Sequence record: PZ049338.1
DNA from: a phage
Strand: one strand, 5' to 3'
Length of the DNA: 64,000 nucleotides
Shown: in pieces, positions 16,377 through 51,133 of the stretch
How the letters are laid out: each line of letters opens with the position of its first letter
Numbering within the stretch: position 1 is the stretch's first letter
Program-made: the position numbers and the translations under genes
The notes under the pieces: generated by a model
Seen by the model: only the letters and a program-made list of their open reading frames with translations
What the model was told of the DNA's origin: nothing
Databases searched by the model: none

Positions 16377-19300
16377 ATGAATTTTGTGACTGACCCTAAA
16401 TTGCTTGAGGAGTTAAACGCAGGATTCAATCCACAGGGGGCTTCGGCCCCTTCGGTTGATTCCCAAACTCAAACCGCTCCACAGGAAGCAGAAACTAACT
16501 GGGGTATTTACGCTAAAGAAGATGGTTCCATTATGGACACTATCGGTTCTGGTTTGACCAGGATGGGGCGTGCTACCGCAGCAGCTATGGTTCCTAGTGA
16601 TGATGAGGACATGTCGGATTACGCATTAGCTCGCGCTCGACGTGCTAACGCAGAGTACAAAGCTGATGCTGAAAAGCTTGGTGTTGCAGGTCAGGTAGTT
16701 GCAGGTGCTGCAACATATGCCCCTGTTATTGCCGCTGGTATTGCTAACCCTCTGGCAGGTGCTGCTATGATGGGTGGTGCTACTACTGCTGACTCTCTTG
16801 CTGCACAGATTGATAACAATCAAGATTTAGACCTTAACAGTGCAATTGCTGCCGGTGCTGCATCAGCAGGTGTCGACCTTGCTACAATGGGACTCGCCTC
16901 TCGTGGCATGAATGTTGCTAAGGAATTAACATCCCCTGTTAAGCGTGCAATTGCCGGTACTGGTATACAAGCAACTCAGGGTGCTACTTCTAACGCAGCA
17001 GCTCAAGCTGCTATTAACTTAGCATCTGGTCGTCCTTGGAATGAAGGTCTGATAGAAGCTGCTGCCATTGGTGGTGTTGCAGGTGGTGGTTTACATGCTA
17101 CCCTCTCTGGATTGAACCACTCTGCAGGCACTCCACCTAATAAGGGTGGTCAGAAGGCTACAGAAGACCAAGTTAAGTTCGAAACCAAAGATGGGATTAC
17201 TCCTACGGGTGATTATCGTAATCAAGTGTACGAATACGCAAACCAACGTCACCAGTATGATGAAGACATTAACAACATCGACATTGATGATACTAATGGT
17301 TTGGATGCCGCTGTAAATGCTAAAGTAGGCATGGCACTTAACAACGGTACTGCCTCTGCTATTCAGGGCACTGCTAAGCTGTTAGATAAGTTTAAAGTAC
17401 CTAAGACTATTAACTTCTGGGATATGGATGTTGGTAATGGTATCAGTAGCCAACCTGTTGGTAACATAGCTCGCGATTGGTTCAATTTCAGTGACAAAGA
17501 CCTGTTGAAAGCTGGTGAATCTATTGGCCGTGCCAAGCAGACATTGACTGGACGTACCAAAGCACTGGAACAGGGTGAGTTTGAGGAATCCTTCCTTCGT
17601 CAGATGAAAGACTCTTACGATAAGGCCCAAAACGACATCTTAGGGCGTGCAGAATCCAACTGGCGTACCGTCGATAACATTCGTTCACAAATGACCGGTG
17701 CAGAGCGTCCTATGCGTGATTCTCTGAATATCCTGTCTCGTAACCTTGAAGACTACTCTAAGATGGTACGTGATGCCAACTTAGGTAAAGCCCCTAACAC
17801 CGATACTCTCCGTGCTGTTGTAGAAAGCATTGAAGTTAATGCTAAGAAGACTGGACTTCGTGACAAGCTGAAATCTCTTGTAGATGACGCTGAGCAGTTT
17901 GATGGTATCACAAACTTAGAGTCTGCACTGTTGTTTGCAAAAGGTGCTCAGAAGGTTGCTCCTGGCATCCATCGTGCTAACCCTGACCCACTGAAAGCAT
18001 CAAGCCAGAAGGCTGATATGCTGGATGCTGCTGCTGTTGCAACAGGTCAGTTCTGGTTACCTGTGGCTCGTCGTGGTCTTCGTGAGATTGGCGGTAAACG
18101 TTCTCAAGCTCGTTTGCGTGGTGAGAAGGCTCAAGGTGAAGTTGTTTCTCAATCCTTGGCTCGTGACCCACGTCCTGATTTTGTTAACCAAGCTGCTCAG
18201 CGTGGTGATTTCAAAGGTGCTGCTGATGAAGCTGCTGCTGATTTGGAATCAATGGGTATTTCTACTGGTCAGAAAGATGTATGGGGTCGTGAAGCCGAGG
18301 CTGCACCTGTACAAGAGACTGCACCAATCCAAGAAGCCCCGGTTACTCCGGAACCTAAAGTCGATGTTTGGGGTCGTCCTCGTGAGTTCACAGACCTGAC
18401 TGGTCGTGGAGTACGTGAGGCAGAAGCAGCTAAGGCTGAAGCAGAGGCCGCTAACGCACCTGTGGTAGACCCAGAAGCAGAAGCCCAGATAAGGTTCAAC
18501 CTTGGTGAAAGACTCGCTCAGGATGCTCGTGTGGACGCTCAGAGACGTGCTCCTGCACCAGAACCTGAACCTGCATTCACGGATAAAGACTCTCGTCGTG
18601 TAGATGACTTGCAAACCAAACAGAACACCGATGGTTTAACATCCTCTGAAGCTCGTGAACTTGAGTCACTTATTCAGCGTAAGCCTACGCCTGAAGTTAA
18701 GGAAGCAGAACCTGAAGCCCCTAAGAAAGAAGGTGTTAAAGCTTCTGAACTGGCTCGTAAACCCATCTCTGATAAGATTAAAGAGTTCAAGGAGTTGTCT
18801 CCTGAAGCTAAGAAAGACCCTCAACTGATTAACGAGTTTACTCGTAACAGACGTCTTCTCTCTGATGCTGATAAAGCTGTATCCTCTAAGGCTACTGCTA
18901 TGTCTGTTCCTCAGGAAGATATTTGGAGAATCATTGAACGTCAAGGTGGCTTGGAGTCTGTATTTAAGGATGGTCACTCTGCTGAACGTGGTCTGAATAT
19001 TCTTATGCAGAAAGATAAGATTGACTTGCAACGTAAAGCTGATATCGAAGCTAAGAATGCCGAAGATGCCGCTGACAGTGTTAATACTAAATCAGGGAAA
19101 GGTGAGACAACCTCTACTGATGAAGTTGATACTGGAAAGGTAATCGAAGACATGAAGAAAGACTTCATCTCTAAAGGTGTTTCTGGTGAGACATTTGAAG
19201 CTGCACAAGTCCGCGCTGAACAGACCCTTGGCCCAGATTATACACCAACGCAGTTAGCTAACGTTGTTAAATTACTGGCAAAAGAGAAAGCGGCTAAGGC

Positions 19301-20387
19301 TCGTGAAGAAGCTAAGAAGACTAGTAAAGCAGCTAAAACCTCTACTCCGGCAGCAACCCCTACCGTTGGTAGAACAATGCAAGACTCTTGGAATGATATT
19401 CATGGTTATGCACAGACACTCGGTGTTGATGCTGAACCTGAAATCCGTAAGGCACTTAAATCAGCCATGAACTCTGGTAACAAGGACAGGGCTAAATTTA
19501 AGGCACTTAGCGAGGCCAAGGAGCGTGAGTTGTACAACAAGGTAGACGACTTCATTGCAGAACAGCAGAAGGCCTACGAGCGTGCTTTAGCGGCTCCTAA
19601 GACCGAACAACCTGCTGAGTTGGGTGAATGGCGTAAGAAGGTTGCAGACCTCAAGAAACGTCGTGCTCGTGTTTCTAACTTCAATGACTGGCAGACTAAG
19701 AAAGCTAATGACCGCAAGGTAGTAGCAGAGAAAGCTATCAAAGAAGAAGAAGCTCGTACTAAGCGTTTAGAGGCTGAAGCTAAGAAGGCTGATGATGAAG
19801 CTAAGGCTGCTGAGAAGGCTATCAAAGATGCTGAAGAAGCTAAGGCAGCAGAGCAGAAGAAAATGGAAGAAGCTGTAGAGAAGGCTTTCGAAGAGAAAGA
19901 TATGGATGCTGATGTTATCGTAGAAGCTGGTTCCCAGTTGTTTGAGAAACTTGCTGCTCGTGTTAACAGTACAGATTCACCTGACTACAATAAGTTGAAA
20001 GCCATTATGACTGTTGTTGAGCGTAACCTGCCAGTTACCAAACTGAAAACAGGTGAACGTAATCAGGCTAAAGCTTTACTGCTGTCCCAGAAGGCACTGT
20101 TCGATGGTCTGGCTCGTAAAGCAGAGTTCCCGAACAATCCTGAATACTGGTTGTCTACAACAGAACGTGACTTAATTGGTGAAGCATACACTGGTAAGCA
20201 AGGGACTAAGGAGTACGGTTCCATGTATCAGCGTCTGCGTGCTGGTCTGTTCGAAGACGAATCAACTCGTGAGTATGTTCGATTCCCTATCGAGGCTCTG
20301 AATCGTAAGATTAAGAATCTTCGTAAGCGTGCTGAGAATACTACTGAACTTGGAGAGGGTGCTATTAACGTTCAGGACATCAAGTAA
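16377..20387 (+). CDS. Large internal virion / DNA-ejection protein (1336 aa), tape-measure-like
   Basis: Size and position comparable to T7 gp16-class proteins; long Ala/Lys/Glu coiled-coil C-terminal region; no catalytic motif recognised. Confidence 0.45.
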   Translation: MNFVTDPKLLEELNAGFNPQGASAPSVDSQTQTAPQEAETNWGIYAKEDGSIMDTIGSGLTRMGRATAAAMVPSDDEDMSDYALARARRANAEYKADAEKLGVAGQVVAGAATYAPVIAAGIANPLAGAAMMGGATTADSLAAQIDNNQDLDLNSAIAAGAASAGVDLATMGLASRGMNVAKELTSPVKRAIAGTGIQATQGATSNAAAQAAINLASGRPWNEGLIEAAAIGGVAGGGLHATLSGLNHSAGTPPNKGGQKATEDQVKFETKDGITPTGDYRNQVYEYANQRHQYDEDINNIDIDDTNGLDAAVNAKVGMALNNGTASAIQGTAKLLDKFKVPKTINFWDMDVGNGISSQPVGNIARDWFNFSDKDLLKAGESIGRAKQTLTGRTKALEQGEFEESFLRQMKDSYDKAQNDILGRAESNWRTVDNIRSQMTGAERPMRDSLNILSRNLEDYSKMVRDANLGKAPNTDTLRAVVESIEVNAKKTGLRDKLKSLVDDAEQFDGITNLESALLFAKGAQKVAPGIHRANPDPLKASSQKADMLDAAAVATGQFWLPVARRGLREIGGKRSQARLRGEKAQGEVVSQSLARDPRPDFVNQAAQRGDFKGAADEAAADLESMGISTGQKDVWGREAEAAPVQETAPIQEAPVTPEPKVDVWGRPREFTDLTGRGVREAEAAKAEAEAANAPVVDPEAEAQIRFNLGERLAQDARVDAQRRAPAPEPEPAFTDKDSRRVDDLQTKQNTDGLTSSEARELESLIQRKPTPEVKEAEPEAPKKEGVKASELARKPISDKIKEFKELSPEAKKDPQLINEFTRNRRLLSDADKAVSSKATAMSVPQEDIWRIIERQGGLESVFKDGHSAERGLNILMQKDKIDLQRKADIEAKNAEDAADSVNTKSGKGETTSTDEVDTGKVIEDMKKDFISKGVSGETFEAAQVRAEQTLGPDYTPTQLANVVKLLAKEKAAKAREEAKKTSKAAKTSTPAATPTVGRTMQDSWNDIHGYAQTLGVDAEPEIRKALKSAMNSGNKDRAKFKALSEAKERELYNKVDDFIAEQQKAYERALAAPKTEQPAELGEWRKKVADLKKRRARVSNFNDWQTKKANDRKVVAEKAIKEEEARTKRLEAEAKKADDEAKAAEKAIKDAEEAKAAEQKKMEEAVEKAFEEKDMDADVIVEAGSQLFEKLAARVNSTDSPDYNKLKAIMTVVERNLPVTKLKTGERNQAKALLLSQKALFDGLARKAEFPNNPEYWLSTTERDLIGEAYTGKQGTKEYGSMYQRLRAGLFEDESTREYVRFPIEALNRKIKNLRKRAENTTELGEGAINVQDIK

Positions 20388-35444: not shown

Positions 35445-35468
35445 AAAAAAGGCCACCCGTAGGCAGCC
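35445..35468 (-). terminator. Rho-independent terminator
   Basis: On - strand GGCTGCC-TACG-GGTGGCC hairpin followed by TTTTTT. Confidence 0.45.
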
Positions 35469-35565
35469 TTGTGTTAACCTTCACCCCAGCCCGTATTAGA
35501 ATCCATCGAATTCATCATACGTCCCAGTTCTCTTCACCAGCAGTGTAACCAATTGCATTCATTCG

Positions 35566-35922
35566 TTAATCCTTCTTCTTCTTGCTCTTAGGCTTGCTCA
35601 CAGGTAAACGGGACTTAGCGCCCTTACGTCCACCTGCGGCCTTACCTTTTGAGCTACCAGACTTACCACCAGCAGACATATTCTCGCTGGCATCACGTAA
35701 ACGCAAATTACTGCGGTCATTGGAGCCACCATCTTTAACTGTCTTCTTGTGGTCAACGTGTACAGATGTTGGCAATTTTCTACCGATGCTCTTTTCCATC
35801 TCTCGACGGGCACGGTGTCGCATTGCATCCTTAGACTTCTTACCAACGCCGGTATCACCACGCTTTATAGCAGTGATACGTTCTTGTGCGTAGTTTCGTA
35901 CATAACCCGGTGAACTAGGCAT
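35566..35922 (-). CDS. Small basic HNH-family nuclease
   Basis: VHVDHKKTVKDGGSNDRSNLRL HNH signature; GGAGG SD. Confidence 0.5.
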   Translation of the reverse strand: MPSSPGYVRNYAQERITAIKRGDTGVGKKSKDAMRHRARREMEKSIGRKLPTSVHVDHKKTVKDGGSNDRSNLRLRDASENMSAGGKSGSSKGKAAGGRKGAKSRLPVSKPKSKKKKD

Positions 35923-35934
35923 TCAACCTCCATG

Positions 35935-36150
35935 TTAATCAGAGCATGAACGGGTGACCCCTCGCTCTCCAACTGGTGCGCGTTCTTTTGCTTGCCAGTC
36001 TTGTGCGAGTTTTTGATAATTCTCAGCTTCTTCCACATTGCCATTTGCATATGCTTCATCACGCATTGAAAAACACCAGTCAACCGTTGATGCGTTACTC
36101 TTGTCCATTATAATCACCCCATTCGTATTCATATTCGTCGAAACGTTCAC
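35935..36150 (-). CDS. Hypothetical acidic protein (71 aa)
   Basis: ORF; preferred over overlapping 35865-36083 ORF. Confidence 0.3.
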   Translation of the reverse strand: MNVSTNMNTNGVIIMDKSNASTVDWCFSMRDEAYANGNVEEAENYQKLAQDWQAKERAPVGERGVTRSCSD

Positions 36151-36265
36151 CCGGCATTGTTTCTTTACAACACGGGCATATGTAATAGTGTGAATAGTCC
36201 TCAGTGCTTACGCGTTTCATGGGAACAAAACACCAATCACATTCAATACTTTTCACACCGTACAT
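36095..36265 (-). CDS. Small zinc-ribbon protein (~56 aa)
   Basis: CDWC...CPCC; internal ATG at 36265 with AAGGTA SD avoids overlap with upstream gene. Confidence 0.3.
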   Translation of the reverse strand: MYGVKSIECDWCFVPMKRVSTEDYSHYYICPCCKETMPGERFDEYEYEWGDYNGQE

Positions 36266-36275
36266 AATGAATACC

Positions 36276-36545
36276 TTATTTAAGACTCTTCTCAACTCTA
36301 CGAGTAATATACTCACGAGCTACTTTAGGATTACATTCCATTAAGAGGTCTTCAACATCTTCGTTGATTTCACTCTTCGTTACAGTTAACTGATGAAGAT
36401 ACTTACCCTGAATAATCATTGCAATCTGCAGAGCTTCATCAAAACTTGATTGATTGACAGCCTCTTGTGAGGCCATAACTGATTGGATGATTTGGTTTAC
36501 ATCAAATTCAACCAAGGAGCCATCATCTTTCTGATATTTTACCAT
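36276..36545 (-). CDS. Hypothetical protein (89 aa)
   Basis: ORF. Confidence 0.35.
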   Translation of the reverse strand: MVKYQKDDGSLVEFDVNQIIQSVMASQEAVNQSSFDEALQIAMIIQGKYLHQLTVTKSEINEDVEDLLMECNPKVAREYITRRVEKSLK

Positions 36546-36553
36546 TCACTACC

Positions 36554-37003
36554 TCAGCGACCAGAGCGTACAAAGTATGCCAGCTTGTCGATGGCAGCTA
36601 CTAATTCTTGCAAGATGCTAACAGTCACATCATCCTCTGTATCAAACAGACGAGCCACATGACCAGTTATTGTTTCCAGAGTTTCGACCATATCAGACAA
36701 CATCTCTGAACTGTCGTAGCTGTCAACACCTTCACTGAACCAGCGAACTTCATGATAATACCCTGCCGTTGATTTGACAGGATGCTGTAGGCCACGTAGC
36801 CGCTCAGCAACAATATCAGACCATTCATCAGCAACAGTATCAATATCTTCGAACAGTTTATGGAGACTTCCAAAGTTGGCTCCGGTTACGTTCCAATGAT
36901 AATTCTCTGCCTTGATGGACAGTAATTTGAGGTTGGCAACCACTGGATTCAATGGGTGCAGATTATCTTCACCACTTTGACGTGACGGTCTTGGAGATAA
37001 CAT
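36554..37003 (-). CDS. Dps/ferritin-like protein
   Basis: HWNVTGANFGSLHKLFEDI...DIVAERLRGL resembles Dps family ferroxidase/DNA-binding signature. Confidence 0.5.
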   Translation of the reverse strand: MLSPRPSRQSGEDNLHPLNPVVANLKLLSIKAENYHWNVTGANFGSLHKLFEDIDTVADEWSDIVAERLRGLQHPVKSTAGYYHEVRWFSEGVDSYDSSEMLSDMVETLETITGHVARLFDTEDDVTVSILQELVAAIDKLAYFVRSGR

Positions 37004-37659
37004 TACTCAGTTTCCTTAATAGTTGCTTTCAAGGCCGACCAAGCGACCGGATAAAGGTCAGTCATGATTGCATCAAGTTGCTGTGCAAACAAACGAACCT
37101 CGTATTGAGCATGAGTGCTCGAACGTTGACGGTATACTTCAAACCAACCATACAGTGAACCAGTCCATACCCATTCTGTAACCATCCCTTGCGGGAGTAC
37201 AAAGCGAGCCTGCTCTGGTGCAATGAACTTAATCAGCTTATCGTAGGCAAGTAATGCTGCTTCATATGCGTAATTATACAACACAAGAGCTTCATATTTC
37301 TTAACACCTTCAAGAAGTACACCACCGCCATCATGCAAGTTATCAGGTCGTGCAAAGATTTCCTTAGGAATGAACACTTCGACATTACCATCTTTATATC
37401 GACGGCTCATTTCGTTCCAAGAAAATCCAACCTGATGCTTACCTAGCTGGCGAGCGATTGCGATTGGGGCTTTACAGCGAAGGGTCACTGTTGCGTGCCG
37501 GAATGGGGTTACATGACGTTCACGAGCTAAGAACTTGACCAAGCGAACATCTCGCTCATTCAACTCACCTTCTCGTGTTACACCATAAGATACTCGTGCT
37601 GCGTTAACAACTGAAGTATCATCACCCATTAAATCTACTAATTGCGCTTCAATAGTCAT
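37003..37659 (-). CDS. ThyX-like flavin-dependent thymidylate synthase homolog (non-canonical motif)
   Basis: AARVSYG N-terminal and QLGKHQ...S...SRRY region resembling the ThyX RHR-x-S motif with RHR replaced by KHQ. Confidence 0.45.
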   Translation of the reverse strand: MTIEAQLVDLMGDDTSVVNAARVSYGVTREGELNERDVRLVKFLARERHVTPFRHATVTLRCKAPIAIARQLGKHQVGFSWNEMSRRYKDGNVEVFIPKEIFARPDNLHDGGGVLLEGVKKYEALVLYNYAYEAALLAYDKLIKFIAPEQARFVLPQGMVTEWVWTGSLYGWFEVYRQRSSTHAQYEVRLFAQQLDAIMTDLYPVAWSALKATIKETE

Positions 37660-38684: not shown

Positions 38685-38950
38685 CAGCGAGTCTCTTCTA
38701 AGTCTCGGTTAACACCCACATTACCATCAAGGTTAGCCTGCACTTGAGCAGAAATAACAATCAGGTTCTTAGGGTAGGAGAGGGTTGTTTTACCAGAGCT
38801 AAGCACATGGATTCGAACTTTCAGAGGAGTAACATCCACAACTCGGGCTATTTCTAGCCCTTGGTTGTATTTACCATTACCCCAGACAACAATATCGTCC
38901 AGTCGAATCACCCGGTGCAGCTTATCACGGTGATTGTGTGACAGTAACAT
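38684..38950 (-). CDS. Hypothetical protein (88 aa)
   Basis: ORF. Confidence 0.3.
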   Translation of the reverse strand: MLLSHNHRDKLHRVIRLDDIVVWGNGKYNQGLEIARVVDVTPLKVRIHVLSSGKTTLSYPKNLIVISAQVQANLDGNVGVNRDLEETR

Positions 38951-39240
38951 TAATCAAGACCTCGCACTGTAGAGAGGATGAAATTACGCAGCATGTCTTC
39001 AGTCTGCATCCCTGTTTTGAAACCTACTGGCTTCTTGTTTTCATCAAACACGATGATGGTTGGGACACCACGGATGCCAAAGGTACGAGCTTCTTCGCGT
39101 ACTCCGTCGTCTTCGATGCTACGGGATTCAAAAGTAAATCCCTCTTCTTCCAGTTCATCTTGAACTTTCTTGAAGATAGGCTCGATTGCTTTGCAAGGAG
39201 CACAGGAAGTACCAAAGTATTTAATTACAGAGTAAGCCAT
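38950..39240 (-). CDS. Thioredoxin-like protein (CAPC active site)
   Basis: GTSCAPCK active-site motif and GVPTIIVF cis-Pro loop region. Confidence 0.65.
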   Translation of the reverse strand: MAYSVIKYFGTSCAPCKAIEPIFKKVQDELEEEGFTFESRSIEDDGVREEARTFGIRGVPTIIVFDENKKPVGFKTGMQTEDMLRNFILSTVRGLD

Positions 39241-39998
39241 TATTCACCACCTTCGTTGTCTAATTCCATTGCTTTAACCACTGCCTTACAGAAGCCGCTT
39301 CGAACGATATCGTCAGAAGTACCTTCAACAACAGCAGCATAGTCGCCCAGAGCGTGACGGTTGATAAAATCAATCGCCCAATCCAGACCATTTTCACCAC
39401 CCATATCATTCTGCTCGGAATCCCCGATACAGAACAGCTTAGAGTTCTCACCCAAGCGAGTCATGATTGAGTACATTTCATCAGGTTTGGTATTCTGAGA
39501 TTCATCCACAATGACCACAGCGTTCTCGAAAGAACGACCACGAACATATTCCAGTGGTACGAATTCAATGTTACCAAGACCCATCTGGCACTCATAGAAG
39601 CCATGACCGTAACGACCTTTGATTACATCTACCATAGGCATCAGATACGGTTCAAACTTCTCTTTCAGAGTGCCGGGCAGGAGACCAAGAGATTTACCCA
39701 TACCAACCGAAGGTCGGCTCAGTACAATCTTCTGAATCTTGTTCTGCTTAAGCCAATCTGCGGCTTGACTCATGAGTACAAAAGTCTTACCGCAACCAGC
39801 AGGAGCGTCAACAAACACAACCTGAGCTTCCATCATGCTAGTATGAAGTTCACGTTGGAACTCATTCTTAGGGATGATAGGCTTGATAATGTTTGCTGTC
39901 TCAAACTCACGACGAGCGTGTTGGCTATTACGACGAACAGTTTCTTCGCGCAGTGCTTCACGACGTAATTCACGACGACTAGGCTTAAGTTTCTTCAT
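39240..39998 (-). CDS. phoH: PhoH-like ATPase
   Basis: Walker A DAPAGCGKTF and PhoH-like downstream motifs. Confidence 0.75.
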   Translation of the reverse strand: MKKLKPSRRELRREALREETVRRNSQHARREFETANIIKPIIPKNEFQRELHTSMMEAQVVFVDAPAGCGKTFVLMSQAADWLKQNKIQKIVLSRPSVGMGKSLGLLPGTLKEKFEPYLMPMVDVIKGRYGHGFYECQMGLGNIEFVPLEYVRGRSFENAVVIVDESQNTKPDEMYSIMTRLGENSKLFCIGDSEQNDMGGENGLDWAIDFINRHALGDYAAVVEGTSDDIVRSGFCKAVVKAMELDNEGGE

Positions 39999-45477: not shown

Positions 45478-45703
45478 TGAACGCTTGATGTTTTGCCAAC
45501 TTCTTTTTCATGAGTTTGTTGTGGACTTGAAGAATATTAGAGACCTCTTTGGTGACAGTCACATGAGGTACAGCAACACCTTCAGCGAATTTTAGTCGCT
45601 TAAAGGGAGCGACAAGGTAAATGAACTTAGCAACTTCAGTGTTGTTTCGTAAATTTACCTCTTCCCCATTAGTTAACTTATAATACACCCAGAGATTCCA
45701 CAA
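45428..45703 (-). CDS. Small protein ending in SSB-like acidic tail DYDDESPF
   Basis: C-terminal motif resembling the SSB C-terminal tip. Confidence 0.35.
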   Translation of the reverse strand: MWNLWVYYKLTNGEEVNLRNNTEVAKFIYLVAPFKRLKFAEGVAVPHVTVTKEVSNILQVHNKLMKKKLAKHQAFIDSIVYGEDYDDESPF

Positions 45704-46865
45704 TAATTACATCGTTAGTTGTAACCATGATTTCCCAGCCAGCCAGTTCGAACATACCACCGGTGAATACACCTACGTTACGAACATCATCGTTACGCAT
45801 CTGAACGATGTAGATGCCGTTTTCAACCAAGCGAATTGGTTCCTGACGCGTCACAGTAGCTGTTACCTCTGCTTCGATAGCGAAGTTTTCATCTTCAGCA
45901 GCTTCTACTGCATTGTCTGTGGCAGTCTGGTTCTGAGTTACAATGTCAACCAGTTCCTGAGCGGCAGCGTTACCACGAACGATTGCTGCTTGCAATTCAC
46001 TGTTGGTGTTCACTTCATTTTGCAATTCAGCCAGAGCTTCATTAATATCTTCGACAGCATAAACTTCCTGACCATTGAAGATTGCCATTACGTTGGCTGC
46101 AAAACGTTCTGCGTTAGAACCGGTCATACCCGGAGCAGTGTTAACTTCCAGTACCCACGCTTCATCACGACGAGTAATGAGGTCAACTGCACCGTAGTCC
46201 AGACCCAGAGCAGCGATTGCTTTCAGGGCTTCACGCTTAGCTTCTTCATTAGGCTCAGCCTGCTGAGTTGCATAAATCCAACCAGTGTGGTGATTTCGGA
46301 TAATATCACTGTATTCTGGCAGGTCAGCGTAACCGTTCACACGCTTCTTCTGCTGAATGTTAGTGATAACACCATTCATCACATGGATGCGGTATTCACG
46401 ACGCTGAGCATTAACACCCTTGGTGTAAAGCTGTGCATTAGCCAGAGTACCTTGAACACCATCACCGAAAAGCTCTTCGTTGTTGGTTGCAATCACAATG
46501 CCTTCACCAGAGTGTCCAGAAAGGCGTGTACGGCAATAAACCAGATGACCTGCATCAAGCCATGACTGAGCTTCTTCACGGTCTGTAGTGTACTCTACAG
46601 TCTTCACATCATTGCGACGGAATACTTCGAAAGAGATACGTTTGTTGGTCGCATTACCAACGTTGTACGGGTTGTTCAGGATGCGGGCATTGCCGATGAT
46701 TTCGGCAGATAGGGAGGATGAACCGTAGTTGACAATTAAGTCACCACTGCGACCACGGAAGCGAGAGCCATCAGTCAGGAGACGAAGTGCTCCCGGCATT
46801 AAAGGCATGAGTTCGTTCAGGGTGTCAGAAGGGCCATTTGAATATACACGTAAGCGAGGTGCCAT
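45678..46865 (-). CDS. ATP-grasp ligase (RimK/glutathione-synthetase-like)
   Basis: Flexible loop RTRLSGHSGEGIVIA, EYRIHVMNG, DYGAVDLITRRDEAWVLEVNTAPGM matching ATP-grasp motifs. Confidence 0.75.
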   Translation of the reverse strand: MAPRLRVYSNGPSDTLNELMPLMPGALRLLTDGSRFRGRSGDLIVNYGSSSLSAEIIGNARILNNPYNVGNATNKRISFEVFRRNDVKTVEYTTDREEAQSWLDAGHLVYCRTRLSGHSGEGIVIATNNEELFGDGVQGTLANAQLYTKGVNAQRREYRIHVMNGVITNIQQKKRVNGYADLPEYSDIIRNHHTGWIYATQQAEPNEEAKREALKAIAALGLDYGAVDLITRRDEAWVLEVNTAPGMTGSNAERFAANVMAIFNGQEVYAVEDINEALAELQNEVNTNSELQAAIVRGNAAAQELVDIVTQNQTATDNAVEAAEDENFAIEAEVTATVTRQEPIRLVENGIYIVQMRNDDVRNVGVFTGGMFELAGWEIMVTTNDVIIVESLGVL

Positions 46866-46907
46866 TGTTGTTACCTTTTCAGTGGGTTGTTGGAAATCAA
46901 TATTATA

Positions 46908-46927
46908 AGAGGCTCCGAAGAACCTCT
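46908..46927 (-). terminator. Intergenic UUCG-tetraloop hairpin (weak terminator or processing site)
   Basis: On - strand AGAGGTTC-TTCG-GAGCCTCT; downstream tract only moderately U-rich. Confidence 0.3.
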
Positions 46928-46938
46928 GAAATATGGAC

Positions 46939-47178
46939 TTAAGCGGCCATCAATGCGATGAGTTTGCGGTTTTCATTCCTGAGAGCACCAATCTCATCAT
47001 CAATAAGACTGTAGTGGTACGATAACATTTGGAGGGACATTTCACCTACATCTGAGGCAGTCATCTGCTCGACGTAAGTTGCCTTCTCCTCAATCAGCCG
47101 TCCAATGTCTTTGTTGTTTTGTGCTATTAAATCCATCGCCTCTTTACGAGCAGCTCTTGCGACTTCATTATCAGCCAT
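46939..47178 (-). CDS. Hypothetical protein (79 aa)
   Basis: ORF. Confidence 0.3.
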   Translation of the reverse strand: MADNEVARAARKEAMDLIAQNNKDIGRLIEEKATYVEQMTASDVGEMSLQMLSYHYSLIDDEIGALRNENRKLIALMAA

Positions 47179-47402
47179 TAGACTTCAATCCCCTTCAGAC
47201 GGCAGTAGTCAGCCAGCATCATGTGGATTGATACCGGATAAGGGATAGCCACTTTAACACCTTTTTGCTCTTCGTAAAGACCAATCTGGTAGGCACGAAC
47301 TGCACGGAGCATATCAGAACCTAAATCAGTCATTGGAACTTTACGAATCACAACCGGGTTCTCCAGACGAAGAACCTTAACTTCTTTCATTGAATCATCC
47401 AT
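47178..47402 (-). CDS. Hypothetical protein (74 aa)
   Basis: ORF. Confidence 0.3.
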   Translation of the reverse strand: MDDSMKEVKVLRLENPVVIRKVPMTDLGSDMLRAVRAYQIGLYEEQKGVKVAIPYPVSIHMMLADYCRLKGIEV

Positions 47403-47417
47403 ATTCTCATTTACCTA

Positions 47418-49409
47418 TCATTTCTTGTTTGAAACTTTACCCGGAACCTTTCCAGTTTCCAGAACTTTTGAACAGCGTTCACAGCAAGGTGTACTGCCGA
47501 TAAACTCTGTAACCGCTGCTTTGTTGAAAGGAATCTTGTAGTTGCAGAAAGAGCAAGTGTTCATCTCTTCCCACTGAACCAGAGTCACTTTCATACCGTT
47601 TTGCAGAGACTTGCGATAAGTCAGGATTGGTCGGACATTACTGCCGCTATTCTTCCGCGCTTCCACAATCTCATTCTGGAGAGCTTTCAGTTCACTCTTC
47701 AGATGCTTGTTACTGTGGCACTGTAAGCAGAGGCTCTCAACCTCTGATTCAGCATCAACAGGTAACTCTTCTTGACAGTTGATACATTCAAAACGAAGCG
47801 AGTCGTCAGAGGACGTCTTTACACCATCAACTAACCCCGCATCTACACAACCACCACAATAGGCGTAATCATGATAGATTGTTGAGTCTGCCACGAAATC
47901 GAACGGTATTGGAGAGCCACAGTTTCCGCAGCAATTGTAAGACCCGTTTCCCTCCCATTCCTTTTTTGTGACTACAGTTCCGTCACGAGTTGTGTCCATT
48001 GTGTAACCATCATCTTCCTCTTCTTCGAGTTCAGAGAAGTCACCAATTGAAACACCGGGAGTGGTAAGAGTTAGAGCCGGCGGGGTACGATTGTTCTTGA
48101 CAGTGTTGAACTCTGTCAGAATATCATTGATATCTTCATCTAACGAACCTTCATCATCCAAATCCAATGTTGAAGGAATTAGGGTCTCACCTTGTGGTGA
48201 AACATCAGATACGATGATAGTCAGGATGTAGTTTGATTCGTAACAAGAGATAATCTTGCCTTCGAACATACCACCATCGGTGTACATTTCCAGAGGAACG
48301 CCATGACCCTGAACCTCAATGTAAGCGCCTTCACCTATCCAACCGGTAAGTTGACCTTTCTGAGGATTCTTAGGATACGGTTCGTACTGATACGCTTCGA
48401 ACACCATACGTTCATGCATCTTGTATGGAACCTGATGCACTTCCAGAAGTTCGTTAAGCTGCTTGTACTTGTTGCTCACTGAATCAGGGACACCAATGTG
48501 AGAAGGCTCAACGTTGCTTCGATTAACGCTGCTGCGAGAAGGATTGTTATAAACACGCGACGAGCCGTAGGTGTCATAACGGTCTGAAAAGTAGTCATCA
48601 TACGACTGGTAGGAATTGCCCCAGTAGCGCGATTGGTATACCGTTTGAAACACAGGCAGCTCGTGCTTGATTTCCTCCTTAAATACCAGACCATCAGTTG
48701 CATCAAATACATACTGAGTTCCGACTTCGAGTTCAAACTCTTTGTCGAAAGTTGGGTTCCACTTCTTACGGGACATAATCCACTTGAGCATGTCCTTCTC
48801 AGAAGCACCATACCAGTCACCACCAGTGGTCTTCATCATGTAGAATGGACGCTCGTCGTTACGCAGGAAGTTCAGCGTATTCAGCTTAGCGTCATGCCAC
48901 ACCAGAACGAATGCACCATGCAATTTCTTGATGGTTTCTTCGATACCGATAGTTGCGATTGAATGGCAAACGTTCTCACTGTCCACTTCAAACTGCTCAT
49001 GGTCAGGGAGTAGGCTTTGGTTTACTAATGAGCCGTTGTGAACCAGAGTGATATGTCCACATTGGAATGGGTGGGCGTTCTTGTCAACCACAGCTCCAGC
49101 AGTTGCATAGCGGTTGTGACCAACAATGAATCGAGGGTACGACACTGATGTTGTTTTAACACCGAGGTTGTTAACATTCTCAGAACGATGCTGAGCAATA
49201 TCTTTCCACAGAGTTGAACGAAGGAAAATGTCACTTGGTACAGCTTTCTTAGCCGTCTTCAAGAAGGCATCCTGCTGATACGGCTTGTAATAAGCCATCA
49301 CCCCAGTTGAATGGTCGCCTCGGAACACATCGGCATACAACATCTGCTCGAAACGCTCGAGGTTAGTTGAAGATAAGGCGGTTCCACCTACAAATACAAT
49401 TCCACACAT
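47418..49409 (-). CDS. Class-II (Ntn) glutamine amidotransferase-like protein with C-terminal triple zinc-ribbon region
   Basis: N-terminal MCGIV nucleophile; C-terminal CxxC pairs (CGNC...CGGC, CINC...CLQC, CSFC...CERC). Confidence 0.55.
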   Translation of the reverse strand: MCGIVFVGGTALSSTNLERFEQMLYADVFRGDHSTGVMAYYKPYQQDAFLKTAKKAVPSDIFLRSTLWKDIAQHRSENVNNLGVKTTSVSYPRFIVGHNRYATAGAVVDKNAHPFQCGHITLVHNGSLVNQSLLPDHEQFEVDSENVCHSIATIGIEETIKKLHGAFVLVWHDAKLNTLNFLRNDERPFYMMKTTGGDWYGASEKDMLKWIMSRKKWNPTFDKEFELEVGTQYVFDATDGLVFKEEIKHELPVFQTVYQSRYWGNSYQSYDDYFSDRYDTYGSSRVYNNPSRSSVNRSNVEPSHIGVPDSVSNKYKQLNELLEVHQVPYKMHERMVFEAYQYEPYPKNPQKGQLTGWIGEGAYIEVQGHGVPLEMYTDGGMFEGKIISCYESNYILTIIVSDVSPQGETLIPSTLDLDDEGSLDEDINDILTEFNTVKNNRTPPALTLTTPGVSIGDFSELEEEEDDGYTMDTTRDGTVVTKKEWEGNGSYNCCGNCGSPIPFDFVADSTIYHDYAYCGGCVDAGLVDGVKTSSDDSLRFECINCQEELPVDAESEVESLCLQCHSNKHLKSELKALQNEIVEARKNSGSNVRPILTYRKSLQNGMKVTLVQWEEMNTCSFCNYKIPFNKAAVTEFIGSTPCCERCSKVLETGKVPGKVSNKK

Positions 49410-49465
49410 GGATAATAATCCTCTAAGTTCATTTAAATGGGGCCGAAGCCCCTGTTTGTTAATAC

Positions 49466-51133
49466 TTAAGCGATATGGTCGTTATCTGGCTCATAATCAT
49501 CGTCTTCTTCAATATCGTCATCTTCAGATGATTCATACATATCGTAATCACCACCACGACGAGGTACAGGGACTTCATTACGAGCTTCACGGTTCTCTTC
49601 ATTACGCATGTCTACGAACTGACGGTAGAAGTTTCCGAACAGACGAGAACGTTGAGCCTGATTGGTTTCGTAGATGAACCAATCAATGTCAAAAGTGATG
49701 CCAAGCATATCGCACTTCCAACGCAACTCAGCTAACCAACGGAATGTCAGCATTGGAGGGCGGGTGTTCTCCAACAACCAAGTGCCATTACTGCGGGTTT
49801 CCAGATTGATTCGCAGGTGTTCCCAATAGCGAGGTTCCAGATAGAAATTTGTACGATGACTTGAATCATCCTCGGCAGATTTCACAGTGTGAACGTAAGC
49901 ACTGAGTTTGCGTAGGGTTGACATTGAAATCACTTCATATGCCAGTTTGTAGCCAATGTCCAAATCTTCTTCGAAGTTCTGAACAACCTTCGGCAGACCC
50001 TTACGAATTGCGCTGTGAATCGGCAATGTTGATAGGTACTCAATGAAGTCACTATCAGTACCTTCGAAGTTCACCGCCAGTTCCTTCAGTGATAAGAAGC
50101 GGTTAGTCAGGCGAATAATGCTGCCCTTACGCCACTTGGCCTCACTAATACGGAATTCAACTGAACCAAAACTACTCATCGGTAACAAGTTCAGTGAAGT
50201 GTACTTATCCCATTCACGGGTTACACGATTAGTGAAATCGTGGTTGTCCAGATGCCAGTTGTTAGCCAGAGTAGCTAACTGCTCCTGTGCAAAACCAAGA
50301 GCAACACAGAAGTTGTTCTTGTAACGATGCCAACCAGAGCAGCGGAACAGTACACGCTCATAAACAATATACGCAAGAATCATGCGCTTCAGTTGAGCGA
50401 CACTCAAATCACGTACATCAATGTGAACGTGGGTGGAGCAACGCCAAGATGTATCTGGCGTATGACGGAACAGGAAGGAGTCGATTTCCAGGGATGCTGC
50501 ATAGAGGTCACGACCACCCCAAGGGGATGAACATACAAACTCCATACCTGAGTTACGAAGTGAACCATCTAGCTTTGCTTCCCAATACTGGAAAGTTGGC
50601 TCATCACTGAGGTGAATCTCTTCGAGTTCAATCTCAATACCTGCCAGATGTGTTCCAACAATTAAAGGATGACCCTGAATAGTTGGGTAGGTTGCACGTT
50701 GCCCGTAAATCTGTGCAATATTCATGTTATTCGATACCTCTACGTTTCCGGAGATGAAGCCGTTGCGGCTTGGATTATTAACGCTTCCGTGTCTCTGGTT
50801 ACCAATCTCTTCCCGTAGATTGTCTCGTGTGTATGCGTGTTGACCTCTTTGAAGTCCAGTGAAGAGGCTAGGTCTCTGGCTTTCGCGCTCCATTCTCCGC
50901 TGTCTTGCTTGTTCATCAGCACGGTTATTCAACCACGTCATGAAGGCACTATCTTCTGACTGAGCTACCCCCTGATTCACTATTGGCACAGGTGGCTCTT
51001 CGAAAGCTTGAGATACAACACTTTCTGTTACATTCGGAGGTTGATAATTAGCCCATCTGTCCATGTGTACAGTGGCTTCAACGTCGAAGAAACCCCCAGT
51101 TAATCCTGGGGAGTTGTTACTGTTATTTGGCAC
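49466..51133 (-). CDS. Amidoligase-like protein (GCS2/glutamine-synthetase-like fold candidate) with acidic C-terminus
   Basis: THVHID H-x-H motif; operon context with ATP-grasp and amidotransferase. Confidence 0.35.
   Translation of the reverse strand: MPNNSNNSPGLTGGFFDVEATVHMDRWANYQPPNVTESVVSQAFEEPPVPIVNQGVAQSEDSAFMTWLNNRADEQARQRRMERESQRPSLFTGLQRGQHAYTRDNLREEIGNQRHGSVNNPSRNGFISGNVEVSNNMNIAQIYGQRATYPTIQGHPLIVGTHLAGIEIELEEIHLSDEPTFQYWEAKLDGSLRNSGMEFVCSSPWGGRDLYAASLEIDSFLFRHTPDTSWRCSTHVHIDVRDLSVAQLKRMILAYIVYERVLFRCSGWHRYKNNFCVALGFAQEQLATLANNWHLDNHDFTNRVTREWDKYTSLNLLPMSSFGSVEFRISEAKWRKGSIIRLTNRFLSLKELAVNFEGTDSDFIEYLSTLPIHSAIRKGLPKVVQNFEEDLDIGYKLAYEVISMSTLRKLSAYVHTVKSAEDDSSHRTNFYLEPRYWEHLRINLETRSNGTWLLENTRPPMLTFRWLAELRWKCDMLGITFDIDWFIYETNQAQRSRLFGNFYRQFVDMRNEENREARNEVPVPRRGGDYDMYESSEDDDIEEDDDYEPDNDHIA

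What the first reader, a model, noticed from the sequence alone, without database searches (positions are those of the whole stretch)
36554..37003. Dps/ferritin-like protein in a lytic phage
The HWNV...LHKLFE...DIVAERL pattern resembles Dps. A phage Dps could protect replicating DNA from oxidative damage or sequester iron during infection.
Basis: inference. Interest (0 to 1): 0.4.

Follow-up and report, generated by a model that had tools for sequence, protein, structure and literature searches.

The report
Phage-encoded Dps mini-ferritin gene
The gene encodes a small iron-oxidising, iron-storing Dps protein with a complete catalytic site; it is a conserved, long-annotated but never tested core gene of the phiEco32/7-11 group of elongated-head phages, so the call is right but not new.

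Summary
Window 36554..37003 (minus strand) is a 149-aa ORF carrying the quoted motifs. It matches Pfam Ferritin-like (E 8e-10), PHROG 3636 (E 2e-33) and dozens of solved Dps proteins (best E 3e-13). An alignment-based AlphaFold model (pLDDT 93.9) superposes on Dps crystal structures at 1.0-1.6 Å over 135 residues.

All ferroxidase-centre residues are present: H36, W37, H48, E52, D63 and E67 correspond to E. coli Dps H51, W52, H63, D67, D78 and E82. Except E52, where D and E alternate, they are invariant in ten phage homologues.

The window is a phiEco32/7-11-like podophage, 97% identical to Salmonella phage PKM.Hi.22.6. The gene lies in the replication and nucleotide-metabolism operon. Its start overlaps the thyX stop, and an ATP-cone remnant of NrdD follows 8 nt downstream.

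This is not new. 140 phage records carry a homologue, phiEco32 gp67 has been annotated "member of the Dps family" since 2008, and two papers detected the protein by mass spectrometry.

The likely function is consumption of Fe(II) and H2O2 to limit Fenton damage during infection. That is inferred, not shown. DNA binding is doubtful, because the N-tail is short and net neutral and the pI is 4.8.

The parts
36554..37003 (-). dps-like gene: 149 aa, 16.8 kDa, pI 4.8. A Dps-family mini-ferritin.
   Evidence: ORF listing. Pfam, PHROG and PDB matches. AlphaFold model with pLDDT 93.9. Foldseek TM about 0.85 and rmsd 1.0-1.6 Å to Dps crystal structures. dN/dS 0.20.
36800..36898 (-). Ferroxidase-centre segment, residues 36-68. 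It holds H36, W37, H48 and E52 (helix A end and helix B start) and D63, E67 and R68 (helix B). The spacing of 12, 4, 11 and 4 residues is identical to E. coli Dps H51, H63, D67, D78 and E82.
   Evidence: In alignment A1, H36, W37, G41, F44, H48, D63, E67 and R68 are invariant across 10 phage proteins plus E. coli Dps. In the 91-sequence alignment A2, H is present in 90, H in 89, D in 89 and E in 90 sequences. The E. coli reference sequence was verified as identical to PDB 1f30_A.
36953..37003 (-). Disordered N-terminal tail, residues 1-17 (MLSPRPSRQSGEDNLHP). It carries the lineage-conserved M-[LI]-x-x-[RK]-P-x-[RKS] motif. The tail has two Arg and two acidic residues, so it is net neutral.
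   Evidence: Low pLDDT for residues 1-17, with helix A starting at residue 18. Conservation of the motif in 7-11, pSal-SNUABM-01, A24, Privateer and BUCT695.
36629..36643 (-). Acidic cluster D121-T-E-D-D125 at the turn between helices C and D. It aligns with E. coli Dps D141-D142. It is the expected lining of the iron-entry pore; this is an inference.
   Evidence: D124 is nearly invariant (>= 90%) in A2. Alignments.
37003..37659 (-). thyX, flavin-dependent thymidylate synthase, immediately upstream. Its stop codon overlaps the dps start (GAGTAATG), and an AAGGA lies 12 nt upstream of the ATG. Translational coupling is likely.
   Evidence: Pfam Thy1, E 6e-42. Junction sequence.
36276..36545 (-). 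Stand-alone ATP-cone ORF of 89 aa, starting 8 nt after the dps stop. It corresponds to the N-terminal domain of the NrdD that follows dps in related phages.
   Evidence: Pfam ATP-cone, E 1.3e-8. 50% identity, E 3e-27, to residues 1-86 of phage A24 NrdD. Synteny.
38950..39240 (-). Thioredoxin gene in the same minus-strand operon.
   Evidence: Pfam Thioredoxin, E 1e-12.
35449..35470 (-). Terminator-like hairpin, the first one on the minus strand downstream of dps. It is a candidate end of the transcription unit.
   Evidence: Consensus scan only: 9-pair stem followed by a T-run.

Best explanation
The ORF encodes a genuine Dps-family mini-ferritin.

**Shown here**
- The protein has the Dps four-helix bundle with the short BC helix.
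- It keeps every residue of the inter-subunit di-iron ferroxidase centre. H36, H48 and E52 come from one subunit, and D63 and E67 from its two-fold partner. The neighbouring radical-trapping Trp (W37) is also present.
- It has an acidic cluster where the iron-entry pore is expected.
- It sits in the early/middle replication and nucleotide-metabolism operon. The order is primase/helicase, exonuclease, dCTP deaminase, PhoH, thioredoxin, ThyX, Dps, ATP-cone. Its start is coupled to the thyX stop.

**Inferred from established Dps biochemistry**
- The protein assembles into a hollow 12-mer.
- It binds Fe(II) at the twelve inter-subunit sites, oxidises it preferentially with H2O2, and deposits Fe(III) in the cavity.
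- During infection this would remove both Fenton reagents. That would protect replicating phage DNA and the redox-sensitive enzymes encoded beside it: flavin-dependent ThyX, thioredoxin and, in relatives, the glycyl-radical NrdD.

Direct DNA coating is not required for this role and is doubtful for this protein.
For: **Family identity**
- by sequence.
- the best NCBIfam models are all Dps or DpsA.

**Fold**
- pLDDT 93.9, with helices at 18-38, 44-71, 80-85, 98-121 and 125-148.
- the top 50 PDB matches are all Dps, for example Dlp-2 at rmsd 1.0 Å over 135 columns.

**Catalytic residues**
-.

**Selection and conservation**
- dN/dS is 0.20, and none of the 7 amino-acid differences from the PKM phages touches a ligand.
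- 140 phage records carry a homologue.
- The SU10 paper lists it among the few middle genes shared by all five C3 phages then sequenced (PMC4281155).

**Expression**
- The protein was detected by mass spectrometry in SU10 (6 peptides, 35.8% coverage) and in Privateer.

**Context**
-.
- The same redox and dNTP neighbourhood occurs in 7-11, pSal-SNUABM-01, phiEco32, A24, Privateer, BUCT695 and LAh_8.

**Origin**
- Only 25% identity to the host-type E. coli Dps, so this is an old phage lineage gene and not a recent host pick-up.
Against: - No experiment on any phage Dps was found.
- Dodecamer formation, iron oxidation and any phenotype are all inferred.
- The host already makes its own Dps, so the need for a phage copy is unexplained.
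- In distant viral contigs the Dps gene sits in unrelated contexts such as glycosyltransferases and a portal gene. The link to nucleotide metabolism is therefore specific to this lineage.
Confidence: 0.6

Rival explanations
1. The protein is mainly a DNA-binding or DNA-condensing protein, as the database name 'DNA-binding protein' implies. It would coat phage or host DNA to protect it physically, for example from nucleases or restriction enzymes, or to compact the host nucleoid. Iron chemistry would be secondary.
For: - PHROG 3636 and most GenBank records use the name 'DNA-binding protein'.
- The N-terminal tail carries a conserved basic motif. By my count on the alignment, it is net +2 to +5 in 7-11, pSal-SNUABM-01, A24, Privateer and BUCT695.
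- From my own knowledge, E. coli Dps binds DNA through a Lys-rich N-tail.
Against: - The name is inherited from the family, not tested.
- In this window's protein the tail has only R5 and R8, offset by E12 and D13, so it is net neutral.
- The whole protein is acidic, pI 4.8 against 5.7 for E. coli Dps.
- From my own knowledge, several Dps proteins with short or neutral tails (Listeria, Bacillus anthracis Dlp, Agrobacterium) do not bind DNA.
- Strict conservation of all ferroxidase ligands argues that the iron chemistry is what is selected.
Confidence: 0.15
2. The protein is a virion-associated cargo. It would be packaged in the elongated head to protect the packaged genome from iron-driven oxidative damage outside the cell, or it would be delivered with the DNA.
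For: - The homologue was detected by mass spectrometry in CsCl-purified Privateer virions, among ten proteins (PMC7881722).
- It was also detected in SU10 preparations.
- BFVD holds Dps-fold domains inside long proteins of uncultured phages that are named 'Prohead protease'.
Against: - The SU10 sample was only PEG-precipitated, and its authors warn that early and middle proteins may contaminate it. DNA polymerase and thioredoxin were detected as well.
- The structural study of purified SU10 virions assigns only gp20-24 as internal proteins and never mentions Dps. It analysed only the major gel bands.
- The gene lies in the replication operon, not the structural module.
- Long Dps-containing proteins that I scanned carry no capsid or protease domain.
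- An iron-loaded 12-mer bound to DNA could simply co-purify.
Confidence: 0.08
3. The protein is an iron buffer or donor for iron-dependent enzymes needed by the phage, such as Fe-S radical-SAM activase and RNR chemistry, rather than a protectant.
For: - Across Grimontviridae and Lahexavirus, dps is immediately followed by NrdD or by its ATP-cone remnant.
- An anaerobic RNR small subunit (the activase) lies nearby in LAh_8.
Against: - Among the window's large ORFs that I scanned, none is an NrdD catalytic subunit; only the ATP-cone remains. I did not search the window specifically for the smaller NrdG activase. Dps is nevertheless kept under purifying selection.
- phiEco32 has dps without any Nrd gene nearby.
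- From my own knowledge, Dps cores are small and iron release to client enzymes is not an established Dps role.
Confidence: 0.1

Closest known systems
phiEco32 gp67 (phi32_67, ABY52868.1) and its orthologues in Kuravirus and Grimontviridae: SU10 CDS67, Salmonella phage 7-11 gp073, pSal-SNUABM-01 gp077 'putative DPS protein', Privateer gp068.
   Same: - Same protein family (PHROG 3636).
- 39-51% identity over nearly the full length.
- Same invariant ferroxidase residues.
- Same replication and nucleotide-metabolism neighbourhood. The thyX-dps-ATP-cone order is identical to 7-11 and pSal-SNUABM-01.
   Different: - The Kuravirus proteins are 187 aa, with roughly 40 extra N-terminal residues and a C-terminal extension.
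- In Kuravirus the gene is separated from thyX by a small ORF and thioredoxin.
- The window protein has the least basic N-tail of the set.
WKV17116.1 and WHS68321.1 of Salmonella phage PKM.Hi.22.6 and phage PKM.Lu.22.1.
   Same: 95% amino-acid identity, with 7 differences, and the same locus. UniRef already names this protein 'Ferritin/DPS domain-containing protein'.
   Different: GenBank calls both 'hypothetical protein'.
Cellular Dps with solved structures: Bacillus brevis Dps (1n1q), B. anthracis Dlp-2 (1jig), Pseudomonas aeruginosa PA0962 (8ff9), Mycobacterium smegmatis Dps2 (2z90).
   Same: - Fold, with TM about 0.85 and rmsd 1.0-1.8 Å over about 135 residues.
- Ferroxidase ligands and their spacing (alignments).
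   Different: Only 24-29% identity. Oligomeric state and activity of the phage protein are untested.
E. coli and Salmonella Dps, the host's own protein.
   Same: The ligand set H51, H63, D67, D78 and E82 plus W52 aligns one-to-one.
   Different: - 25% identity.
- Scores 48.8 bits against a cut-off of 114 on the NCBIfam Dps equivalog model, so it is not an orthologue.
- Lacks the Lys-rich N-tail (K5, K8, K10).
Dps-like genes in gut Bacteroides phages ('Gratiaviridae') and Lactobacillus myophages (Benler et al. 2021, PMC8008677).
   Same: Phage-borne Dps proposed to raise tolerance to oxidative stress during infection. Bacteroides phage BS162P1 has a homologue with the same ligands.
   Different: Distant, about 25% identity. 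Different phage families, hosts and gene contexts.

Membership tests
Dps (DNA-protection-during-starvation) mini-ferritins, within the ferritin-like superfamily | Significant sequence match to the ferritin-like/Dps profile and to characterised Dps proteins. | tested here: met
   PF00210 at 39.2 bits against a cut-off of 24.5. PDB Dps hits down to E 2.8e-13. PHROG 3636, E 1.9e-33.
Dps (DNA-protection-during-starvation) mini-ferritins, within the ferritin-like superfamily | Four-helix bundle with a short BC helix in the long crossover loop, and no fifth C-terminal E helix as in 24-mer ferritins. | tested here: met
   Model with pLDDT 93.9 and helices at 18-38, 44-71, 80-85 (BC), 98-121 and 125-148. 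Best PDB fold matches are all Dps, at rmsd 1.0-1.6 Å. This is a predicted structure, not an experimental one.
Dps (DNA-protection-during-starvation) mini-ferritins, within the ferritin-like superfamily | Inter-subunit ferroxidase-centre ligands: two His and an Asp/Glu on one subunit, and Asp and Glu on helix B of the partner. In E. coli numbering these are H51, H63, D67, D78 and E82, with the adjacent Trp52. | tested here: met
   H36, H48, E52, D63, E67 and W37 with identical spacing. Except E52 (D or E), they are invariant in A1. Present in 89-90 of 91 sequences in A2.
Dps (DNA-protection-during-starvation) mini-ferritins, within the ferritin-like superfamily | Assembly into a hollow dodecamer with 23 symmetry. 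| not testable with these tools
   Only monomer prediction was available. Needs SEC-MALS, cryo-EM or multimer modelling.
Dps (DNA-protection-during-starvation) mini-ferritins, within the ferritin-like superfamily | Fe(II) oxidation (H2O2 preferred over O2) and iron-core formation. | not testable with these tools
   Biochemical assay required.
Dps (DNA-protection-during-starvation) mini-ferritins, within the ferritin-like superfamily | Non-specific DNA binding through a basic N- or C-terminal tail. This defines the DNA-binding subset, not the whole family. | tested here: inconclusive
   The 17-residue N-tail has a conserved RP-x-R motif but is net neutral (R5, R8, E12, D13). The protein's pI is 4.8.
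Enterobacterial Dps orthologue (NCBIfam NF006975 equivalog) | Score above the curated equivalog cut-off. | tested here: not met
   48.8 bits against a cut-off of 114. 25% identity to E. coli Dps. It is a Dps-family member but not an orthologue of the host protein.
phiEco32/7-11-type phage Dps (PHROG 3636) | Full-length match to the phage family profile and a conserved locus in a C3-podophage replication module. | tested here: met
   PHROG 3636 covers residues 16-147 of 149. Synteny with 7-11 and pSal-SNUABM-01. The window is 97% identical to a Grimontviridae phage.

The most novel reading that the evidence does not exclude
The phage Dps may be a dedicated partner of the phage's own dNTP-synthesis enzymes rather than a generic stress protein. 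It is translationally coupled to flavin-dependent ThyX, whose NADPH-oxidase side reaction makes H2O2 (my own knowledge). Across the lineage it is followed directly by the oxygen-sensitive glycyl-radical NrdD or its retained ATP-cone. In this reading it would act as a local H2O2 and Fe(II) sink that keeps this redox module, and the nascent DNA, working in aerobic or iron-rich cells. A second unexcluded twist is that a fraction is carried in the virion, as the Privateer proteomics suggest.
Probability: 0.15. Interest if true: 0.5.

Novelty: already known. Interest (0 to 1): 0.2.

Why it matters
If the inferred function is right, this lytic phage group carries its own iron and peroxide detoxifier as a core gene. 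That would point to oxidative and iron stress as a real constraint on phage replication in enteric hosts. It would be relevant to phage therapy candidates of the Kuravirus and Grimontviridae groups. It would also provide an easy test case, using a deletion phage, for why a virus duplicates a host stress protein.

As an annotation matter, the finding lets two 'hypothetical protein' entries in the closest genomes be named. It also exposes a propagated 'integrase' mislabel in many Kuravirus records, which could wrongly flag these phages as temperate.

It does not open a new question. The gene has been recognised since 2008.

Tried and rejected
- **Single-sequence AlphaFold.** The model was poor (pLDDT 52.7). 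I replaced it with a run on a 91-sequence alignment.
- **Word-indexed homologue search with the single protein.** It found only 4 hits. Repeating it with alignment A1 was swamped by enterobacterial Dps, because I had included the E. coli sequence. The exhaustive HMMER scan was the useful one.
- **Capsid-cargo idea.**
  - BFVD names some Dps-fold-containing proteins 'Prohead protease'.
  - The long Dps-containing representatives I could scan show only the ferritin domain in Pfam and PHROGs.
  - The SU10 proteomics sample was not gradient-purified.
  - The SU10 virion structure paper does not list Dps.
  - I kept this as a low-probability rival.
- **General linkage of phage Dps to nucleotide metabolism.** A scan of IMG/VR gave 16 loci. 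The distant ones sit next to glycosyltransferases, a portal gene or unknown genes. The linkage therefore holds only within the C3-podophage lineage.
- **The small CxxC...CxxC ORF (36095..36316) as the C-terminal Zn-ribbon remnant of NrdD.** No similarity was found, so I rejected this.
- **Recent capture of the host dps.** Rejected: 25% identity and a score below the equivalog cut-off.
- **A dedicated promoter for dps.** The consensus scan shows nothing convincing directly upstream on the minus strand. The only nearby minus-strand match lies inside the gene. Co-transcription with thyX is therefore assumed.
- **Literature searches for an experimental study of any phage Dps.** Nothing was found.

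Full report
**1. The observation**

Window 36554..37003 is exactly one ORF on the minus strand, 149 aa including its stop. The translation is MLSPRPSRQSGEDNLHPLNPVVANLKLLSIKAENYHWNVTGANFGSLHKLFEDIDTVADEWSDIVAERLRGLQ...

No other ORF at the locus is longer or conserved. The ATG overlaps the stop of the upstream gene (GAGTAATG), with an AAGGA 12 nt upstream. Against the two closest phages the gene shows 11 synonymous and 8 non-synonymous changes, giving dN/dS of 0.20. For comparison, thyX gives 0.12. It is a real gene under selection.

**2. What it is**

Sequence evidence:
- Pfam Ferritin-like PF00210, E 8.2e-10, above the gathering threshold.
- PHROG 3636, E 1.9e-33, over residues 16-147.
- 71 distinct PDB sequences at E <= 10. 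The 60 listed (E <= 4.5e-4) are Dps-family proteins or engineered chimeras built on a Dps scaffold, led by Bacillus brevis Dps at 2.8e-13 and P. aeruginosa PA0962 at 2.6e-12.
- 1575 cluster representatives at E <= 1e-3 in an exhaustive scan of 1.84 billion proteins.
- The best NCBIfam models are all Dps or DpsA, but all score below their equivalog cut-offs: 48.8 against 114 for enterobacterial Dps.

Structure evidence:
- A single-sequence AlphaFold model was poor, with pLDDT 52.7.
- With a 91-sequence alignment the model reached pLDDT 93.9 and pTM 0.87. It has helices at 18-38, 44-71, 80-85, 98-121 and 125-148, and a disordered tail at 1-17. This is the Dps topology, including the short BC helix.
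- The top 50 Foldseek matches in the PDB are all Dps, with TM about 0.85. Examples are B. anthracis Dlp-2 at rmsd 1.0 Å and B. brevis Dps at 1.2 Å, each over 135 columns.

**3.

I aligned the protein with nine phage homologues taken from GenBank records and with E. coli Dps.

The invariant columns are H36, W37, G41, F44, H48, D63, E67 and R68. These correspond to E. coli H51, W52, G56, F59, H63, D78, E82 and R83, with identical spacing. E52 corresponds to E. coli D67; D and E alternate at this position.

In the 91-sequence alignment these positions hold H in 90, H in 89, D in 89 and E in 90 sequences. D124, in an acidic D-T-E-D-D turn before helix D, is nearly invariant and aligns with E. coli D141. 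This is where the iron-entry pore is expected, which is an inference. None of the seven differences from the PKM phages touches these residues. The refutation condition 'absence of ligands' is not met.

**4. Where it sits**

The window is a tailed-phage genome. The plus strand at 3.7-20 kb carries terminase, portal, scaffold and structural genes. The minus strand carries DNA ligase, DNA polymerase, primase/helicase, exonuclease, dCTP deaminase and PhoH.

It is 97% identical over the 4 kb tested to Salmonella phage PKM.Hi.22.6 (Grimontviridae), and 96.5% identical to phage PKM.Lu.22.1.

The local order on the minus strand is:
- PhoH, 39240-39998
- thioredoxin, 38950-39240
- small ORFs
- ThyX, 37003-37659
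- Dps
- an 89-aa ATP-cone ORF, 36276-36545, starting 8 nt after the Dps stop
- further small ORFs
- a terminator-like hairpin at 35470-35449

The same thyX-dps-ATP-cone order occurs in phage 7-11 and pSal-SNUABM-01. In Cronobacter phage A24 and Aeromonas phage BUCT695 a full-length NrdD follows dps. The window's ATP-cone ORF is 50% identical to the first 86 residues of that NrdD. Privateer and LAh_8 also have an ATP-cone-only gene there. In phiEco32 the cluster is dps, a small ORF, thioredoxin, thyX. Within this phage lineage, Dps is therefore a fixed member of a redox and dNTP-synthesis block.

**5. What is already known**

- tblastn finds a homologue in 140 of 50,697 phage records. Most are Escherichia (93), Aeromonas (11), Proteus (8), Salmonella (7) and Cronobacter (6) phages of 70-100 kb.
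- phiEco32 phi32_67 has been annotated 'DNA-binding protein; member of the Dps family' in the 2008 record.
- pSal-SNUABM-01 calls it 'putative DPS protein'.
- UniRef names the 95%-identical PKM protein 'Ferritin/DPS domain-containing protein', although GenBank says 'hypothetical'.
- The SU10 paper lists it among the few middle genes shared by all five C3 phages. It detected the protein with 6 peptides and 35.8% coverage (PMC4281155), but in a PEG-only preparation that the authors say may contain non-structural proteins.
- The Privateer paper detected it in CsCl-purified virions and states that its function is unverified (PMC7881722).
- Benler et al. noted Dps-like genes in gut and Lactobacillus phages and proposed oxidative-stress tolerance (PMC8008677).
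- I found no experimental study of a phage Dps.

**6. How it most likely works**

Shown here:
- Dps fold.
- Complete ferroxidase ligand set.
- Purifying selection.
- Core-gene status in the lineage.
- The protein is made, from published mass spectrometry on homologues.
- Co-location and start-stop overlap with thyX.

Inferred from established Dps biochemistry:
- Twelve subunits form a hollow cage.
- Fe(II) binds at the twelve inter-subunit sites and is oxidised, preferentially by H2O2.
- Fe(III) is stored in the cavity. Both Fenton reagents are removed, and hydroxyl-radical damage to DNA and enzymes is suppressed.

I put 0.6 on this being the selected function during infection. I put about 0.95 on the narrower statement that this is a Dps-family protein with an intact ferroxidase site.

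DNA binding is uncertain. The tail motif M-L-x-x-R-P-x-R is conserved and basic in relatives. In this protein it is net neutral, and the protein is acidic, pI 4.8.

**7. Rivals**

- *DNA coating or anti-nuclease role (0.15).* It rests mainly on an inherited name and the conserved tail.
- *Iron donor for Nrd/Fe-S chemistry (0.10).* It fits the NrdD adjacency. However, Dps persists where NrdD's catalytic part is not found among the ORFs I scanned (this window) or where no Nrd gene is nearby (phiEco32).
- *Virion cargo (0.08).*
  - For: the Privateer proteomics, and BFVD entries in which a Dps-fold domain lies inside proteins named 'Prohead protease'.
  - Against: I could not verify such fusions in the long Dps-containing representatives available to me.
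  - Against: the SU10 structural study does not report Dps in virions.
  - Against: the gene is not in the structural module.

**8. Comparison and membership**

The protein works like, and is a member of, the Dps family. The sequence, fold and catalytic residues were tested and met. Dodecamer formation and activity are not testable here.

It is not an orthologue of the host Dps: 25% identity and a score below the equivalog cut-off. It belongs to the phage family PHROG 3636, together with phiEco32 gp67 and 7-11 gp073.

**9. Verdict**

The feature is ordinary for this phage group and has been annotated for years, so novelty is 'already known' and interest is low (0.2).

What remains open is why these lytic phages keep their own Dps. 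The conserved coupling to ThyX, thioredoxin and NrdD, and the Privateer virion detection, give two testable but low-probability twists (0.15 combined, interest 0.5 if true).

Noticed in passing
window 36276..36545 (-): Stand-alone 89-aa ATP-cone gene directly after dps. It is 50% identical (E 3e-27) to the N-terminal domain of the full-length NrdD that occupies the same slot in Cronobacter phage A24 and Aeromonas phage BUCT695. ATP-cone-only versions also occur in 7-11, pSal-SNUABM-01, Privateer and LAh_8. There are 0 non-synonymous and 4 synonymous changes against PKM.Hi.22.6, so it looks retained (a possible dATP/ATP sensor) rather than decaying. No NrdD catalytic ORF was seen among the window's large ORFs.
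   Followed up: partly
window 36095..36316 (-): Small ORF with a CxxC...CxxC zinc-ribbon-like motif (PHROG 29481, unknown function) next to the ATP-cone gene. The pairing recalls NrdR (Zn-ribbon plus ATP-cone) split into two genes. There is no similarity to the NrdD C-terminus.
   Followed up: partly
GenBank records listed, e.g. NC_070982.1, OP293233.1, NC_070984.1, MN715356.1: In many Kuravirus genomes the Dps homologue is labelled 'integrase'. This is a propagated misannotation that could wrongly suggest a temperate lifestyle for phage-therapy candidates.
   Followed up: no
window 45678..51133 (-): Cluster of an ATP-grasp/RimK-like 'ribosomal protein S6 glutaminyl transferase', a GlmS-like glutamine amidotransferase (663 aa) and an amidoligase (555 aa), by PHROG matches. 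Presumably a small-molecule or peptide-modification module.
   Followed up: no
BFVD entries A0A6J7XDU5, A0A6J7WPK9 and A0A6J7WIS1: Dps-fold domains embedded in 333-763-aa proteins of uncultured phages named 'Prohead protease'. This hints at capsid-targeted ferritin-like cargo, reminiscent of encapsulins. I could not retrieve or verify these sequences. Other long Dps-containing proteins showed no extra known domain.
   Followed up: partly
window 16377..20387 (+): 1336-aa ORF matching only PHROG 32895 (unknown function), located in the structural module. Possibly a large internal or ejection protein.
   Followed up: no
window 35566..35922 (-): 118-aa Lys/Arg-rich ORF (PHROG 4590, unknown function) with a weak HNH-endonuclease match (E 1.6e-3, below the Pfam cut-off). 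It lies just upstream of the terminator-like hairpin at 35470-35449.
   Followed up: no
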